A stretch of DNA of 64,000 nucleotides from the human T2T-CHM13v2.0 reference genome, Homo sapiens (GCF_009914755.1 NC_060931.1); one strand, 5' to 3'; counted from the first letter of the stretch, positions 34,261-64,000 are shown. Notes: a model not told the origin generated them from the letters alone. Numbers and translations: made by a program.

Positions 34261-35832
34261 TGTTCCATATTTCTTACAGCTCCTGATATAATACTGAGCA
34301 TGTGGTAAAGACTCTTTGAGTATGGTTCATGGCAAGGTCATTTAAATAGCTTCTGAAATCCCATTGCTTTTGTGAAGGCTTCCTGTTGGCTCTGTTCTGT
34401 CAGAATGACAAAACTTTCATGGCTTTTTCTGGACTGTTCTTTCTATTCCCATTATCTGTAAGGGGAGCCTTTGGTATGTATTCTGAAGTGGTTTCCAAAA
34501 CAGTGATTTGAAGGATTTATTTATTTATTTTTGAGTAATGTTTTGGATCAATCTCTACATATTTCTAAACATCAGTAGCCAAGATTGTAATAAATAAAGC
34601 ATTTTTCACATACTTTGTATGCAGAGTGAAACACATGGAATAAAATCTCAGCCAATCTGAGGTACAGATGAATAAATTATTTTGCCTAGCTTACTTCAGC
34701 TCAACAGACATTTATTAATGTATCTCCTATGTGCCAGGCATTTTATAGTTGCTGGATTTACAAAGATGAGTAAGATATGGTTTCTGCCTTTGAGTTAGTC
34801 CAGGGCAAATGAGAGACACAAAAACAGATCATTTCAATAGATGACGTGTTCTAAGATGGAGGTGGGACAGGGGCTCTGTGGGATCTCAGATGGTGGGTGA
34901 TTGAAGCGGAATGAGAAGACTTATGGAAAGATGTGAGTCTTAGCTTGTGATGTCTCTCAGAGGAAAAATGCGCTGATCTACTTGATTCAGGGACAGAGAC
35001 CTGACTCAAAGTGACTTCAGTATCTACAGGAATGAATTGCCTGCAGAGTTCAGAGGAAGATTTGGCTCCAGGTGAGGCTTGATGCACTGGCTCAAACAGT
35101 GTCTACCATGGCTCTCTCTTAACTGCTTTTGGAAAAGCCAAATGGCCTCTGTGATTCCATACCGTATGCTCCTCACGCATTACTCACCAGGGAAGAGTAA
35201 CTTTTCCTCTAGTTCCAGCTCAAATTAGGGAGTTCATTTTTCTCTCATTGGCTGTAAATTATCCCTGAACCAATCACTGTGACTACTGGGGTACTAATTG
35301 GTTTACATAAGTCAGGGCCTTGCCTCAAGCTTAGAGTGAGGTCAGTCTCACCCAAACCTTATGGCTGAGCATGAGGAGAGGGGAATGGATAACTAGGGGG
35401 AAGCTAGCAAATGTTTGCTAGATGAGGGGGAGAAAAGTTAAAGGATCTTTGGAGGAAAGAAAATTGTGTAAACAAAAGCAAGGAAGCATGCATCATCATG
35501 ATGTGTGTGGGAAATAGCAAGCAGTTAAACATTAATACAACATGTAGTATAAGAGTTAGAAAATAATTATAGAAATAATAATGTGTTTGGGTATTTTCCA
35601 CTGCTAGGTCTAGTTTCCATACATTATTTTATTTAATTCTCACAAGTTACTGAAGTAGTTACTCCATCTTGCAGATAAGGAAACTTGAGTCTAAGCTCAC
35701 AGCTAATAATTGGTGGAGCTGGACTCAAACCTAGATTATTTGGCTTTAGAGGCAGCCACTTGGACTTGAATATATTAAGTGTTCTCCTCTATGTTGCTAG
35801 AGTTTCAGGAAATAGGACCTGTTCTACTATGC

Positions 35833-58586: not shown

Positions 58587-58964
<378 letters not shown>

Positions 58965-60745
58965 TCATCAGGATGGAGTTGTTTTCTCCTATTAAGGGCT
59001 TGAGTGTAATATTATTGTTGAAGCTCAACGAAGGGTATTCATATTTGCATCAGTGTTTTATCTAAAGCCTGAATTTTAGAAAAATGGAAACGGTGTTTTG
59101 AAAACATTGAATATTTTAAAAAGAAGTTGCTTTCTTATGTTTTATGAGAAAAAACATATAATTCTAATTGCTATGCACTTAACACAAGTTATAGTTATTT
59201 TGTGTCTGAAAAATAATTTAAAAGTTTTGAGATTGGCTTTTGCAATGTCCATCACATGGTCTTTTTAAATTTAACAGAATATTCATACTCACCAGACATT
59301 TTGTATCAGATTTACTTAGAAGGATTTAGAACAGGAAAAACATCTTGCCAGCAGGGCAACATCAAGTATTTCACTTCTGGAAGAGTAATTCTTGCAGGAG
59401 TCTATATATCCATCCAAAGCTGTTCTCTTTGGTCTCTTAAGTGACAGTTCATTTGCAAAAAGACAGATCCACACTGGTGAGTATGGGTCTCATTTTGACT
59501 TATAATCTTCATGTCCTTCAGGAGCCAATATCTTGAAATACTTAAAAATTATTGGGGTTTTGGTGTGTATTTTGAGCACAGGAGAATGATGGGTAGAAAG
59601 ACCTTATTGAGAACATTTAGTTGAAATATATATATTTTTACACATACATTATATACAAGGGATGTACCCATTTCAGGAGTCACCATACTGAGAAAAGTGC
59701 AAAGGTATGGCTTCTCAGCAGATATTTATTGTTAATTTATAGTTTTTGGTCTAGGTGCAACTTATGAGTTAACAGTCAATAATAACTGAAATATTATGAG
59801 TAAAACACCAAATTTTCATATAGTGTGCATCATGATGCTTATGTTCAAAAGTAGCCTGTCATTTTATTTTCGGTACCTGTGAGTGAACCTTCCTATTTCT
59901 CATAGCTTTTGCAAGATGACAGTTATAAACAATTAAATCCAAATATTGCCATTAGTATTTTCCACAATTAATATATAAAAATAAATTCTAATTGTTGAAC
60001 TGAAGATTTTTCTTTTCTTACATATAATTTAACACAAAGTATAGGATTAGACTGTGTTTGAAAGAATTCCATTGTAATTTCTATTAGAGTTTTTTTCTTC
60101 TTCAGTAAACTATAATTAATGCATGAAAAAGAAAATAAAGATTGTAAAACACTAGACTCAATTAACATAAAGTTTAGGAAGGTTTTCTGCCCTCACCACA
60201 ATTGTAAGCTGTATGCTACAGTTATTTAAATACCTTTTATCATAGTCACATCTTAAATCTTATTACTTATCTAAACTGAGGCAGTAAATGGACAATTTCA
60301 AAAATGATCATAAGTACAGAACACCACAACTATATTTTAATCACTTGCAAAAAAGGCCGTGGACCATGGGGAGAGCACTCAGCTCTTAGCTCATGCTGCG
60401 GTTTAGGTTATTAACCACAAAAGGTAAGGGAGCTTCCAGTTTTGCTCTTTGGCTGTCAGATCATTTACAGGGGGGAAGTTGGAATAGTAGCTGGTGTTAC
60501 AGATACCCTACACAATGCAAAGCTAGTGAACACCAATATCTAGTCATCCGGCAAAAAAAGAAAAAAGAAAAAAACAGCATAAACTAGCAAGAGCATCTGC
60601 AGCCAACTGCAGGCTAATGCCACATCTTTTCTCAAGGCTCTATCCTGGGTATGTGAATGAAAAGCCCTGCTTTTGTCCTGATCAACAACAGCCTTCCTGT
60701 GAGGAAGATACTTCCTTGCCACGTGAGCGCTGGTGGGCTTCTCAC

Positions 60746-61001
60746 CTTTGCAAGCAGTCCATAGGTGTGGTGGTTCCCAAAATGTGGCTTTTGCCATTCA
60801 CCATGCTGCCCTCACTCCCTCACCTCATGGGCCACAAGAGGGTGGAAGAGCCAGGCAGATCTAAGCTGATGTCCCAGAAGGGGTCTGTGGTGGTGGAGAC
60901 TCCATGGCAGACTTGGCAGGTGATGTCCAACTGCAGCCCACCTGTGAAGATCTGTTCTATGATGTAGTTGTGGTAGTTGGCCTTCTTCCCATTGTCATCA
61001 C
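60746..61001 (-). pseudogene. USP22: Pseudogenic fragment derived from USP22 (parent gene; catalytic-domain segment), flanked by intact-looking splice sites
   Basis: Manual minus-strand translation: (G)[83 protein letters not shown](R). USP22 as recalled: [89 protein letters not shown]. In-frame TGA at 60822-60820, a 3-codon deletion and CpG-type substitutions. Confidence 0.9.
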
Positions 61002-61371
61002 CTGGGGACAGACTGTGGCTCTGGGATTAGTGTCTGTAAACCACAAAGACAGCGAATGTCTAAGGGAAGAGTATGTTTACCCTGCAGAGGCCTGAGGAAG
61101 CCAGCGCTGACACTTTACAAGGCCATGTGAGGATGCTCATCATTTCATTAGAGGGTCTTGCTGTTATTTAATGTGACGAGAAATCACAGCACTTGGATTT
61201 TCAATGCTCCTGTTTTTGTCATTCCCTAAGAAGAGCCCCATATTTTTTATCTTGCCAACAAAGCACATCTAATGCCCAATAGCTGAGTAGGTAGTTGGTT
61301 CCCTTTTTATATGAGGGACAATTGAATAAATATTTTCCTGCAGACAGCTGAAAATATTGTGGGCCAGATAC

Positions 61372-62897
61372 TGTAACCCCAGACAGGTTCTTTCTGCCTG
61401 TTGCACAAACAAAATCAATTCACTGTATTTCAGTAGAGAAAGAGTTTAATTGATGCAAGGCCAGCCACACCACACTGAAGAGGGACTTATTACTGAAATC
61501 AATCTCATTGAAGGCTCATAGGTTAGGGGTTTTTCAAAAGTTCTTTGGGGGAAGAGTTTGGGGTGGCTAGGCAATGGGTGCTTGCTGCTAATTGTTTGGA
61601 AGGTGCAATCATAGGGGTGTGGGAAATGATCCTGTTGCATGCTGAATCACTTCTGGGAGCAGTTGGTGGGTCCAGGTGGAACCATCATGGGTTTCAGAAA
61701 TGCAAAAAACCTGTAAAGATCTCTTACAAGACCACTGTTAGGTTCTACAATAGTGATGTTATCTGAAGGAGTATTGGGGAAGTTGCATATCTTGTGACCT
61801 CTGGAATAATGGCTGGCAATTGTTTTTGTCTACACCTTAGCAAAATTCAGGCTACTCTATCCTCCTAGCCTGGTGTTCTCTCATTAGCTTTACAAAGACA
61901 GTTGAGTTTTGGGGAAGGGCTATTTTTACTTAAACTATAGACTAAATGTCTCCCAAAGCTAGCCTAGCCTAAGCCTAGGAATAATTAAGGGAGCTTGAAG
62001 GTTAGAGGCTAGAGGGATGTAGGTTAGATCATGTCTCCCCCACTGCCATAATTTTCTCACTGTGACAATTTTTGCAAAGCCTGTTTCACTTTCGCCCTTT
62101 GAGTTTCAGCATGCCTCATTCCCGAGGTGTAAGCTATGATATGGGAAAAGGGTGAGGACTGCTCTAACTTCTTCCTACTGACAGGGGGCATAGTTGTGGT
62201 ATGGGTTGCCCCTAGGGTAAGAGGAGTGGAACTGCTTTGCATGTATTCATAGGTGCCTGATTGGGCTTCCAAGGCTTATATGACAAAGACGTTAATATTC
62301 TCACCCACAGTTTTAGCATAGCACTTAAGTGAACCACAGACTATAGGATAATGAGTAGATTGTTAGAAATACAGATTCACTAAATAGGAAATAGCAAATT
62401 TAAATATATCATCCCATATTTTTTTAATTTCCTAGTCCTGAGACTAGATGAGTTCAGCTGAACAGCTGTTTCCCATATCAGGAGGTGGCATTGCAGATGG
62501 GCTAGGCCTTTGTATTTGATGAAGGCAAACAGATTTTTTAATAAGAGGCATTTCAGACAGGTTCCAGGACTATTTCTTCACTGTAATTAGATCTCTGCCC
62601 TATGGGTCGACAGTGCCTCACCAGCAGGTACAGTGCCAAAGATGACCCTCAGTAGAAATAAGCAGTTGTAAGAGCTCACCTCTAGGTCTGTTATACTGGA
62701 GGAGGCTGATGAACCATGGGCAGATATTTGCAAGGGTGGATCCTGGATAAGCCCCCAAATTTGTAACTGTCTGACGAGTTCTTCCTGCTCACTGTACAAA
62801 CAAAATTAATTCATGACATTGCAGTCGAGAGAGCATTTAATTGACGCACATCTAGCCATACCATGTGGGAGAGAGAGTTATTACTCAAATCAATATC
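61372..62897 (-). mobile_element. Deleted ERV1 (MER4-group) provirus: LTR8A-like 3' LTR 61372-62088, short internal remnant, tRNA-Pro PBS, partial 5' LTR 62762-62897
   Basis: Two related copies of tgtaac...ttc(t/c)tgc...acaaacaaaat...tttaattga...ttattact.aaatcaat. First copy ends gcaaagcctgtttca. Minus strand 62757-62740 reads TGGGGGCTTATCCAGGAT versus Pro PBS TGGGGGCTCGTCCGGGAT. Confidence 0.82.
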
Positions 62898-62952
62898 ATA
62901 ATCTGTTAGAATTTTAAAGGTAATTATTACTAACTTAGCTATAGCTTATCTG

Positions 62953-63299
<347 letters not shown>

Positions 63300-64000
63300 T
63301 AGGAAGTTATTTGAAATTGACAGTACTGAAATAATTTTTCTCTTGCTTTTTATTACCTTTAGGGTTAAAGCTTTTTGATAGAAGCTTCCTTGGCTGAATG
63401 TGTTGATTTATGAAGGAAGTTGCTGCTTTTTAAATACGTTTCTTTTCAGTGAATAAGAAATGTTGGATTTAGATCAAGTTGATGCAATTATACTTAATAA
63501 CAGCATTTTGCTCAGAGTCTAAGATGTTTTTTTTCTTTCCACTCCCACCTACTTGGCAGCTTTAGTCCTCTCTACCTTGTTTATTACATACCAGTTCCAA
63601 TTCTGTCTGTGTTTTCTTCTTCCTTTTCAGATTAAATCTCATTCTCAATTAAATTGTTTTTTATTTAATTATTTTCAATTTTTGTAGGTCAGACTATGGG
63701 AAAATGAAATCAATACACAGGTTACAGAATCAGAAGAGCCCAGCATCTTACTTCTGCTGTGGTCAGTTTCTCAAGTGGCAAATAAAGATCATCATTTATC
63801 AGTAATGTTACTTTCTCTGGAGATATCAAATAAATATATCTACAAGTGTGGAAGTCCATTTGAATGAAACTTCACAAAGATGAGAACCATTCTAAACTTT
63901 GCTGGCAGCTCACAGCAAGCTTTAAAATCTTATTGCAGTACTTATTGCAGCTCATTTTTTAGTTTGAGCAATTTGGTCTAGTACTTCAATGTTTTTCTTC

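What the first reader, a model, noticed from the sequence alone, without database searches (positions are those of the whole stretch)
60350..61250. Hidden semi-processed USP22 copy: two exons apparently fused, outer splice sites retained, antisense within a BBS9 intron
Seen: a GC-richer island in AT-rich intron. Its minus strand 61001-60746 (256 nt) translates to a clear USP22 catalytic-domain segment with one stop and a 9-nt deletion. Homology begins exactly at ctgtccccag|GT, with a CTAAT branch-like motif at 61030-61026, and ends exactly at AG|gtgaga. The flanks do not continue the USP22 protein. Recalled knowledge, to verify: this 265-nt span equals USP22 exons 7+8 (c.839-1103), with an intron at CA|T of the His codon. 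That intron is absent here (junction 60905/60904). Inference: neither an ordinary processed pseudogene nor a DNA duplication, but a reverse-transcribed partially spliced pre-mRNA or an internally spliced exon-skipping lariat. It would record splicing order. I found no clear poly(A) tail or TSD, so the insertion mechanism is open.
Basis: partly seen in the sequence, partly recalled or inferred. Interest (0 to 1): 0.85.

Follow-up and report, generated by a model that had tools for sequence, protein, structure and literature searches.

The report
Fossil retrovirus–USP22 chimeric retrocopy in BBS9
An old, dead copy of two USP22 exons in a BBS9 intron is real and was made from RNA, but it is joined to a retrovirus-like element and most likely copies a hybrid transcript, so it is a neat relic and not a new mechanism.

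Summary
Window 61001-60746 (minus strand) is USP22 exons 7+8 joined exactly at the splice junction. The 1520-bp parental intron 7 is absent. There is one stop and a 9-nt deletion.

New points:
- Homology stops 14 nt after an ATTAAA hexamer in parental intron 8, and an A-run follows.
- The USP22 piece abuts, to the base, the terminal CA of a complete 717-bp LTR.
- Upstream lie the element's purine-rich tract, a junction matching the element's own GT...AG, a tRNA-Pro-type primer site, and only the tail of a 5' LTR.

Best reading (0.6): one L1-type retrocopy, about 2.9 kb, of a spliced hybrid transcript. A provirus once sitting in USP22 intron 6 was read through into exon 7, exon 8 and an intronic poly(A) site.

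Main rival (0.2): a semi-processed USP22 retrocopy later hit by the LTR element and a deletion.

The lariat idea is not supported. No target-site duplication is convincing. Interest is moderate.

The parts
63292..63312 (-). Candidate upstream target-site duplication (weak)
   Evidence: 17 matches over a 19-21 nt alignment to 60095-60077; local score 12; p about 0.05-0.11 against three nulls. It lies just 5' of a later Alu.
62953..63287 (-). Alu inserted later, between the candidate duplication and the 5' end of the insert
   Evidence: Many Alu-type matches to Alus of the USP22 locus. Ends read from the sequence.
62762..62925 (-). Tail of the 5' LTR: about the last 137-165 nt, ending ...TTACA. 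The rest of U3 is absent.
   Evidence: 75% identity to positions 581-702 of the 3' LTR. All 12 LTR copies tested align only from 62894-62899 downward. Weaker homology reaches about 62925, including the TATA-like box (p 0.002 and 0.006).
62740..62757 (-). Primer-binding-site-like 18-mer of tRNA-Pro type
   Evidence: Sits 4 nt after the LTR end. Matches 15 of 18 positions of the tRNA-Pro primer site printed in PMC1769482 (passage).
62554..62739 (-). Leader of the LTR element, ending at a splice-donor position
   Evidence: Aligns to the chrX copy at 1462-1774. The chrX/Y copy continues with GTGAAC right after the junction point.
62089..62553 (-). 3' internal segment of the LTR element, from a splice-acceptor position to a purine-rich tract
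   Evidence: Contiguous with the LTR in two other loci (L027, L029). In relatives the point is preceded by a roughly 20-nt pyrimidine tract, with AG kept in the chr1 copy. About 5.4 kb of the chrX copy is missing here.
61372..62088 (-). Complete 717-bp LTR (TG...CA) acting as a 3' LTR
   Evidence: Its ends were defined against 11 other copies with unrelated flanks. Those copies carry 4-nt duplications: 4 of 10 independent copies perfect and 4 of 10 with 3 of 4 bases. This LTR matches 0 of 4.
61002..61371 (-). Last ~370 nt of USP22 intron 6, including the 3' splice site
   Evidence: 81% identity, K2P 0.226, to chr17 20962143-20961777. Homology starts at the first base after the LTR.
60905..61001 (-). 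USP22 exon 7 copy (97 of 106 nt; 9-nt deletion)
60746..60904 (-). USP22 exon 8 copy (159 nt, one TGA), joined exactly to exon 7
60097..60745 (-). First part of USP22 intron 8, including the 5' splice site; homology runs to 60096
   Evidence: 75-77% identity, K2P 0.30 and 0.28. The parent has since gained an Alu (sense positions 35480-35774) that both this copy and the chr17 DNA duplicate lack.
60090..60096 (-). A-run (A7, of which 6 are untemplated) at the end of homology: likely poly(A) remnant
   Evidence: The parent and the chr17 DNA duplicate both keep ATTAAA and continue with GT-rich sequence. The copy stops 14 nt after the hexamer.
60077..60095 (-). Candidate downstream target-site duplication (weak; overlaps the A-run)

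Best explanation
Window ~62950 to 60090 (minus strand, about 2.9 kb without the later Alu) is a single retrocopy of one spliced, polyadenylated hybrid RNA, probably inserted by LINE-1 machinery. The inferred history has four steps. (1) A tRNA-Pro-primed LTR element integrated, in sense orientation, into USP22 intron 6, 367 nt upstream of exon 7. (2) An RNA running through it, either from the element or from the USP22 promoter, was spliced at the element's own donor and acceptor. It read through the ATTAAA signal of the 3' LTR into the rest of intron 6 and exon 7. Intron 7 was removed, and the RNA ended at an ATTAAA poly(A) site inside intron 8. (3) That RNA was reverse-transcribed and inserted antisense into a BBS9 intron, 5'-truncated within the 5' LTR. 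(4) The provirus allele in USP22 was never fixed, so only this copy records it. Shown: the two exact intron removals, the LTR/USP22 junction at the terminal CA, and the 3' end after ATTAAA followed by As. Inferred: the LINE-1 step, the place of integration, and the loss of the provirus. The copy is a dead relic; it carries a stop and a deletion.
For: Exon 7|exon 8 are joined to the base, and the 1520-bp GT...AG intron is absent. USP22 homology starts at the first base after a complete LTR whose ends were defined on 11 other copies. This LTR matches 0 of 4 bases of the family's usual 4-nt duplication. Among 10 independent copies, 4 match all 4 bases, 4 match 3 of 4, and 2 match 2 of 4. It is preceded by the element's internal 3' end, as in loci L027 and L029. 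The element part has one internal junction at 62554|62553. In relatives, the missing ~5.4 kb starts with GT (chrX/Y copy) and ends with a pyrimidine tract plus AG (chr1 copy). None of the 39 other scored copies spans that junction (40 of 81 candidates were scored). The 5' LTR lacks its first ~545-580 nt. No USP22 homology exists upstream as far as window position 72000. The element and USP22 have the same orientation. Homology ends 14 nt after ATTAAA, which the parent and the chr17 DNA duplicate conserve and then continue past; the copy instead has A6. A candidate duplication encloses the whole block. Ages agree: 5' versus 3' LTR 75% identity, and intron parts K2P 0.23-0.30.
Against: No LTR of this family lies in today's USP22 intron 6, so the source provirus is hypothetical. 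The poly(A) remnant is only 6-7 As. The candidate target-site duplication is not significant (p 0.05-0.11), and three other candidate junction pairs gave p 0.18, 0.37 and 0.98. The 5' end is not cleanly at the start of R, because homology extends ~25 nt further through the TATA-like box. The 5' boundary therefore cannot be told apart from a deletion breakpoint. The 5' LTR tail is no closer to its own 3' LTR (73%) than to other copies (68-74%). Only one copy each keeps the GT and the AG. The chrX relative's internal region gave no retroviral Pfam family in 19 open frames of 45 aa or more, so the element's coding nature is unverified.
Confidence: 0.6

Rival explanations
1. Semi-processed USP22 retrocopy that was later disrupted. 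A USP22 pre-mRNA kept intron 6, had intron 7 spliced out and ended at the intron 8 ATTAAA site, and was retrocopied into BBS9. An LTR element, in a spliced or deleted form, then integrated into its intron 6 part. A later deletion removed most of the 5' LTR and all upstream USP22 sequence.
For: Everything about the USP22 part fits equally well. No provirus is seen in today's USP22. The truncation of the 5' LTR is not at a clean transcript start. No significant duplication encloses the block. Partially processed retrocopies are a recognised class (PMC5470649, passage read).
Against: It needs three events, not two. The deletion must have removed every base of upstream USP22 sequence. The element must have been packaged and integrated in a form that none of 39 other scored copies shows. 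Same-sense orientation would be a coincidence.
Confidence: 0.2
2. Insertion independent of LINE-1. A cDNA or DNA fragment of the hybrid or partly spliced RNA was captured during double-strand-break repair, or an end of linear viral DNA was joined to a USP22 cDNA.
For: No convincing target-site duplication, only a 6-7 A tail, and the LTR ends at the CA expected of processed viral DNA.
Against: The 3' end lies at a proper poly(A) position. No filler or microhomology pattern was identified. The mechanism is rarer than LINE-1 retrocopying.
Confidence: 0.08
3. Gene capture mediated by an LTR retroelement through template switching of the element's own reverse transcriptase onto a co-packaged USP22 RNA.
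For: The USP22 piece touches an LTR. This mechanism is described in PMC5470649 (passage).
Against: Such copies lie between two LTRs. Here the piece lies outside a complete LTR, and no LTR follows it: 59300-60095 is unique in the genome. The junction is at the exact LTR terminus, not at an internal switch point.
Confidence: 0.04
4. Reverse-transcribed exon-skipping lariat, or DNA duplication followed by exact loss of intron 7.
For: Both outer splice sites are kept.
Against: A lariat would carry the 5' end of intron 6 or a branch junction. Only the last 370 nt are present, and they start at an LTR end. The end in intron 8 is a poly(A)-type site. A true DNA duplicate of this locus exists on chr17 and looks different: it is collinear over >10 kb and includes intergenic DNA.
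Confidence: 0.03

Closest known systems
Partially processed (semi-processed) retrocopies; the examples cited in PMC5470649 are Soares 1985, Baertsch 2008 and Zhang 2014
   Same: One parental intron is removed exactly, while other intron sequence and the outer splice sites remain.
   Different: The retained 'intron 6' starts at an LTR terminus, and the retained 'intron 8' ends at an intronic poly(A) site. The template may therefore have been a fully matured aberrant mRNA, not an unfinished pre-mRNA.
LINE-1-processed HERV-W pseudogenes (Pavlicek criteria, as quoted in PMC5016936)
   Same: A copy of a retroviral transcript with a truncated 5' LTR, colinear with an RNA, and with an A-tail.
   Different: A different and older LTR family. 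The 3' LTR is complete (U3-R-U5) and read through into host sequence; it does not end in R followed by poly(A). The 5' truncation is not cleanly at R. The duplication is unproven.
Retrocopies of read-through or fusion transcripts, and 3' transduction by L1 or SVA (recalled; not checked in a paper here)
   Same: Flanking host sequence downstream of a mobile element is carried along when the element's poly(A) signal is bypassed, and it can be spliced.
   Different: Here the upstream partner is an LTR element, which cannot mobilise such a read-through RNA by itself. Another machinery is therefore needed.
Duplicated (non-processed) USP22 fragment at chr17:16.865-16.874 Mb
   Same: Also contains USP22 exon 8 and the start of intron 8.
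   Different: It is collinear DNA-level patchwork at 74-88% identity (one short 35-nt piece is 100%). It keeps the last 23 nt of intron 7, runs past the poly(A) site, and includes sequence beyond the gene.

Membership tests
LINE-1-type processed retrocopy | Parental introns removed exactly | tested here: met
   USP22 intron 7 (1520 bp) is absent to the base. The element's junction lies at a GT...AG position.
LINE-1-type processed retrocopy | Poly(A) tail at the 3' end of the copied RNA | tested here: inconclusive
   Only A7 (6 untemplated), but it sits exactly where homology ends, 14 nt after a conserved ATTAAA.
LINE-1-type processed retrocopy | Target-site duplication flanking the insert | tested here: inconclusive
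   Best candidate scored 12, p 0.05-0.11. Other junction pairs gave p 0.18-0.98.
LINE-1-type processed retrocopy | TT/AAAA insertion motif at the empty site | not testable with these tools
   Needs an orthologous empty site from another species; none is held.
Partially processed retrocopy | Some parental introns retained and others removed | tested here: met
   Parts of introns 6 and 8 are retained and intron 7 is removed.
L1-processed ERV pseudogene (HERV-W type; criteria in PMC5016936) | 5' LTR reduced to R-U5 | tested here: inconclusive
   The first ~545-580 nt of 717 are absent, but ~25 nt upstream of the predicted start are still present.
L1-processed ERV pseudogene (HERV-W type) | 3' LTR reduced to U3-R, followed by poly(A) | tested here: not met
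   The 3' LTR is complete to its terminal CA and is followed by USP22 intron sequence.
Duplicated (non-processed) pseudogene | Intron-exon structure of the parent kept | tested here: not met
   Intron 7 is absent.
Copy of the USP27X/USP51 retrogenes | Best match to the intronless paralogue, with no intron flanks | tested here: not met
   The chrX paralogue matches only 61003-60744, at 77%. The chr17 locus matches the flanks too. USP51 did not appear among the 5 matches.
LTR retroelement (class I-like ERV) | TG...CA LTRs, a 4-nt duplication in the family, a primer site after the 5' LTR and a purine tract before the 3' LTR | tested here: met
LTR retroelement (class I-like ERV) | Recognisable gag/pol/env in the internal region | tested here: not met
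   None of 19 forward open frames (45 aa or more) of the chrX relative matched a retroviral Pfam family. The relative may be non-autonomous or too decayed.

The most novel reading that the evidence does not exclude
The locus is the only surviving record of a germline provirus that once sat in USP22 intron 6 and was never fixed. It would also show that, roughly 50-125 million years ago, LINE-1 machinery copied a transcript of an LTR family other than HERV-W, because that transcript borrowed a host intronic poly(A) site. Retrocopies could then be mined systematically as fossils of vanished proviral insertions and of ancient intronic polyadenylation.
Probability: 0.5. Interest if true: 0.5.

Novelty: new member of a known kind. 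Interest (0 to 1): 0.4.

Why it matters
The locus has no sign of function. Its value is as a record. If the hybrid-transcript reading is right, a single 2.9-kb relic preserves four things:
- an ancient provirus integration in an essential gene that selection or drift later erased;
- the element's own splice sites;
- read-through of an LTR poly(A) signal;
- use of an intronic poly(A) site in USP22 intron 8.

It is also a caution for retrocopy surveys. Apparent 'intron retention' in a retrocopy can come from an aberrant but fully processed mRNA and need not say anything about splicing order. The abstract of PMC5537654 (search listing) calls HERV-W the sole HERV group mobilised by LINE-1. This would be a one-off exception through a host poly(A) site.

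Tried and rejected
- The frame starting at 61001 is the wrong reading frame.
- I looked for more USP22 homology beyond the LTR element and below the A-run with sensitive blastn: nothing better than E 0.02, and nothing as far as window position 72000.
- I looked for the missing U3 upstream of the Alu with 12 LTR copies: none found.
- I first read the 5' end as a clean transcript start at R. I dropped this after one search showed homology running through the TATA-like box.
- Duplications at three junctions were tested and rejected. An early candidate at 62593-62580 turned out to lie inside the element's leader.
- I first took the second chr17 fragment for a sister retrocopy ending at the same site. 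It is a DNA-level duplicate that runs past the site.
- Pfam on the chrX relative gave no retroviral domain.
- A PDB sequence search with the exon 8 peptide found nothing.
- Literature: no paper in the library holds USP22, pseudogene and BBS9 together (12 of 158 two-term papers were listed, none relevant). Searches on semi-processed retrocopies, chimeric retrocopies and intronic polyadenylation gave no description of this locus.
- No other mammalian genome, RepeatMasker/Dfam names or GENCODE tracks were on hand, so the LTR family is unnamed and prior annotation outside RefSeq is unchecked.

Full report
**1.

The stretch is a GC-richer island: GC is 0.50-0.555 over 60600-61099, against 0.23-0.33 nearby. 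Read on the minus strand from 60999, it gives 84 residues of a deubiquitinase catalytic domain with one stop. The frame starting at 61001 is the wrong one.

A search of the window's own genome with 61150-60600 gave five places:
- the window itself;
- two pieces of one chr17 locus, at 81% and 77% identity, whose query ranges meet at window 60905|60904;
- the intronless chrX paralogue, 77%, coding part only;
- another chr17 fragment.

The 52-residue peptide read from the parental exon is called ubiquitin carboxyl-terminal hydrolase 22 by the sources of the best hits, at 92-100% identity. Using the open frame of the chrX paralogue as a probe, the chr17 locus shows 13 coding blocks. The two in question are the 7th and 8th.

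Base-level alignment shows:
- Parental exon 7 is 106 nt and exon 8 is 159 nt.
- They are separated by a 1520-bp GT...AG intron placed at CA|T.
- The copy has 97+159 nt, a 9-nt in-frame deletion, one TGA, and an exact exon-exon junction.
- The 3' splice site before exon 7 and the 5' splice site after exon 8 are both kept.

**2.

Window 61371-61002 aligns to the last ~370 nt of intron 6 (81% identity, K2P 0.226). Window 60745-60097 aligns to the start of intron 8 (75-77%, K2P 0.30 and 0.28). An Alu now present in parental intron 8 is absent from the copy, so it entered the parent later.

The fragment is therefore neither a copy of USP27X or USP51 nor a plain DNA duplicate. With recalled neutral rates of 1.2-2.2 x 10^-9 per site per year, the intron distances suggest roughly 50-125 million years.

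**3. The 3' end.**

Homology to intron 8 stops sharply. The parent has an ATTAAA hexamer, then 14 nt, then GT-rich sequence. A separate DNA-level duplicate of the locus on chr17 keeps the same hexamer and continues in step with the parent. The BBS9 copy follows both up to the 14th base after the hexamer and then reads six extra As, giving a run of seven at 60096-60090. After that comes unrelated sequence that is unique in the genome. This is the geometry of a cleavage and polyadenylation site, so the template probably ended at an intronic poly(A) site. The tail remnant is short, which is weak evidence on its own.

**4. The 5' side changes the picture.**

USP22 homology begins at 61371, the first base after a repeat. 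Aligning that repeat with 11 other genomic copies that have unrelated flanks shows it is a complete 717-bp LTR, running from TG to CA (62088-61372).

The family makes 4-nt target duplications. Of 10 independent copies, 4 have a perfect duplication and 4 match at 3 of 4 bases. The window's LTR matches at 0 of 4. It is therefore not a solo LTR sitting in its own target.

Moving upstream from this LTR, the window holds:
- A purine-rich tract and ~460 nt of sequence (62553-62089). The same sequence is contiguous with the same LTR at two other loci, and in other copies it continues more than 1 kb further upstream.
- The element's leader (62739-62554).
- An 18-mer matching 15 of 18 positions of the tRNA-Pro primer-binding site printed in PMC1769482 (passage read). 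It lies 4 nt after an LTR end.
- Only the last ~137-165 nt of a 5' LTR.

Compared with a longer relative on chrX, about 5.4 kb is missing between 62554 and 62553. In the chrX/Y copy the missing part starts with GT. In relatives it ends with a ~20-nt pyrimidine tract, and AG is still present in the chr1 copy. None of the 39 other copies scored spans this junction (40 of 81 candidates were scored). So the element part, like the USP22 part, looks spliced.

**5. What this implies.**

A complete U3-R-U5 LTR followed by host sequence exactly at its terminal CA is an integration junction. It cannot arise by template switching between RNAs. The element was therefore integrated into USP22 intron 6 sequence, either in the real gene or in the copy.

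*Simplest account (two events).* A provirus sat in USP22 intron 6 in sense orientation. One RNA was spliced at the element's donor and acceptor, read through the ATTAAA of the 3' LTR, ran on through 367 nt of intron 6 and exon 7, lost intron 7, and ended at the intron 8 poly(A) site. That RNA was retrocopied into BBS9 with 5' truncation inside the 5' LTR.

This account explains:
- why only the end of 'intron 6' is present;
- why no USP22 sequence lies upstream;
- why both partners have the same orientation;
- why both carry exact intron removals.

On this reading the template was a finished, aberrant three-exon mRNA, so the locus says nothing about the order in which USP22 introns are removed.

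*The cost.* Today's USP22 has no such LTR, so the provirus allele must have been lost. That is the usual fate of a new sense-oriented insertion in an essential gene, but here it is inferred and not shown.

**6. The main rival.**

It adds a later integration of the element into the copy, and then a deletion that took most of the 5' LTR and all upstream USP22 sequence. It needs three events and an unusual spliced-form provirus. I could not exclude it, for three reasons:
- The 5' boundary is not a clean transcript start. Homology runs ~25 nt further, through the TATA-like box (p 0.002 and 0.006).
- The 5' LTR tail is no closer to its own 3' LTR than to other copies.
- No target-site duplication is convincing.

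The best candidate duplication (63312-63292 against 60095-60077) encloses the whole block and lies just 5' of a later Alu. It scores only p 0.05-0.11. Other junction pairs gave p 0.18-0.98.

The lariat origin, LTR-mediated capture, and DNA duplication with exact intron loss all fit poorly (see the rival explanations).

**7. Comparison with what is known.**

- Partially processed retrocopies are a recognised class (PMC5470649, passage read).
- LINE-1-processed HERV-W pseudogenes are defined by an R-U5 5' LTR, a U3-R 3' LTR, a poly(A) tail, a TT/AAAA site and a 5-15 bp duplication (PMC5016936, passages read). This locus fails the 3' LTR criterion, because that LTR is complete and read through.
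- Retrocopies of read-through transcripts and 3' transduction are known to me from memory only.

I file the locus as a new member of the known kind 'retrocopy of an aberrant or chimeric transcript'. RefSeq lists nothing here (the hub's table). No paper in the library holds USP22, pseudogene and BBS9 together. GENCODE, retrocopy databases and repeat annotation could not be consulted.

**8. Verdict.**

- The mechanism is most likely a LINE-1-type retrocopy of a hybrid LTR-element/USP22 transcript (0.6).
- There is no sign of function.

Noticed in passing
L024/L025 = genome contig 17, 16,865,265-16,873,805: A collinear, DNA-level patchwork duplicate of the USP22 locus at 74-88% identity (one short 35-nt piece is 100%). 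It holds the end of exon 6 and the start of intron 6, then jumps to the last 23 nt of intron 7 plus exon 8 and the start of intron 8, then continues with several kb lying beyond the gene's last coding block. Exon 7 and most of intron 7 are deleted.
   Followed up: partly
L039 (contig 23, 91,039,001-91,048,500) and its contig 24 counterpart L033: A longer relative of the LTR element, with an X/Y pair of copies. None of its 19 forward open frames of 45 aa or more matched a retroviral Pfam family, so it may be non-autonomous or very decayed.
   Followed up: partly
window 62465-62554: The 90 nt just after the element's acceptor point are far better conserved among copies (up to 93% identity) than the LTR (77-82%) or the leader (68-81%).
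   Followed up: no
window 58623-58929 and 62946-63325; extended region 65275-66607: Alu copies flank the locus. Three more lie just beyond the window's end.
   Followed up: no
USP22 locus, sense positions 35480-35774 and about 35980 onward (L020): Alus entered parental intron 8 after both the BBS9 copy and the chr17 duplicate had split off. This gives a relative time marker.
   Followed up: partly
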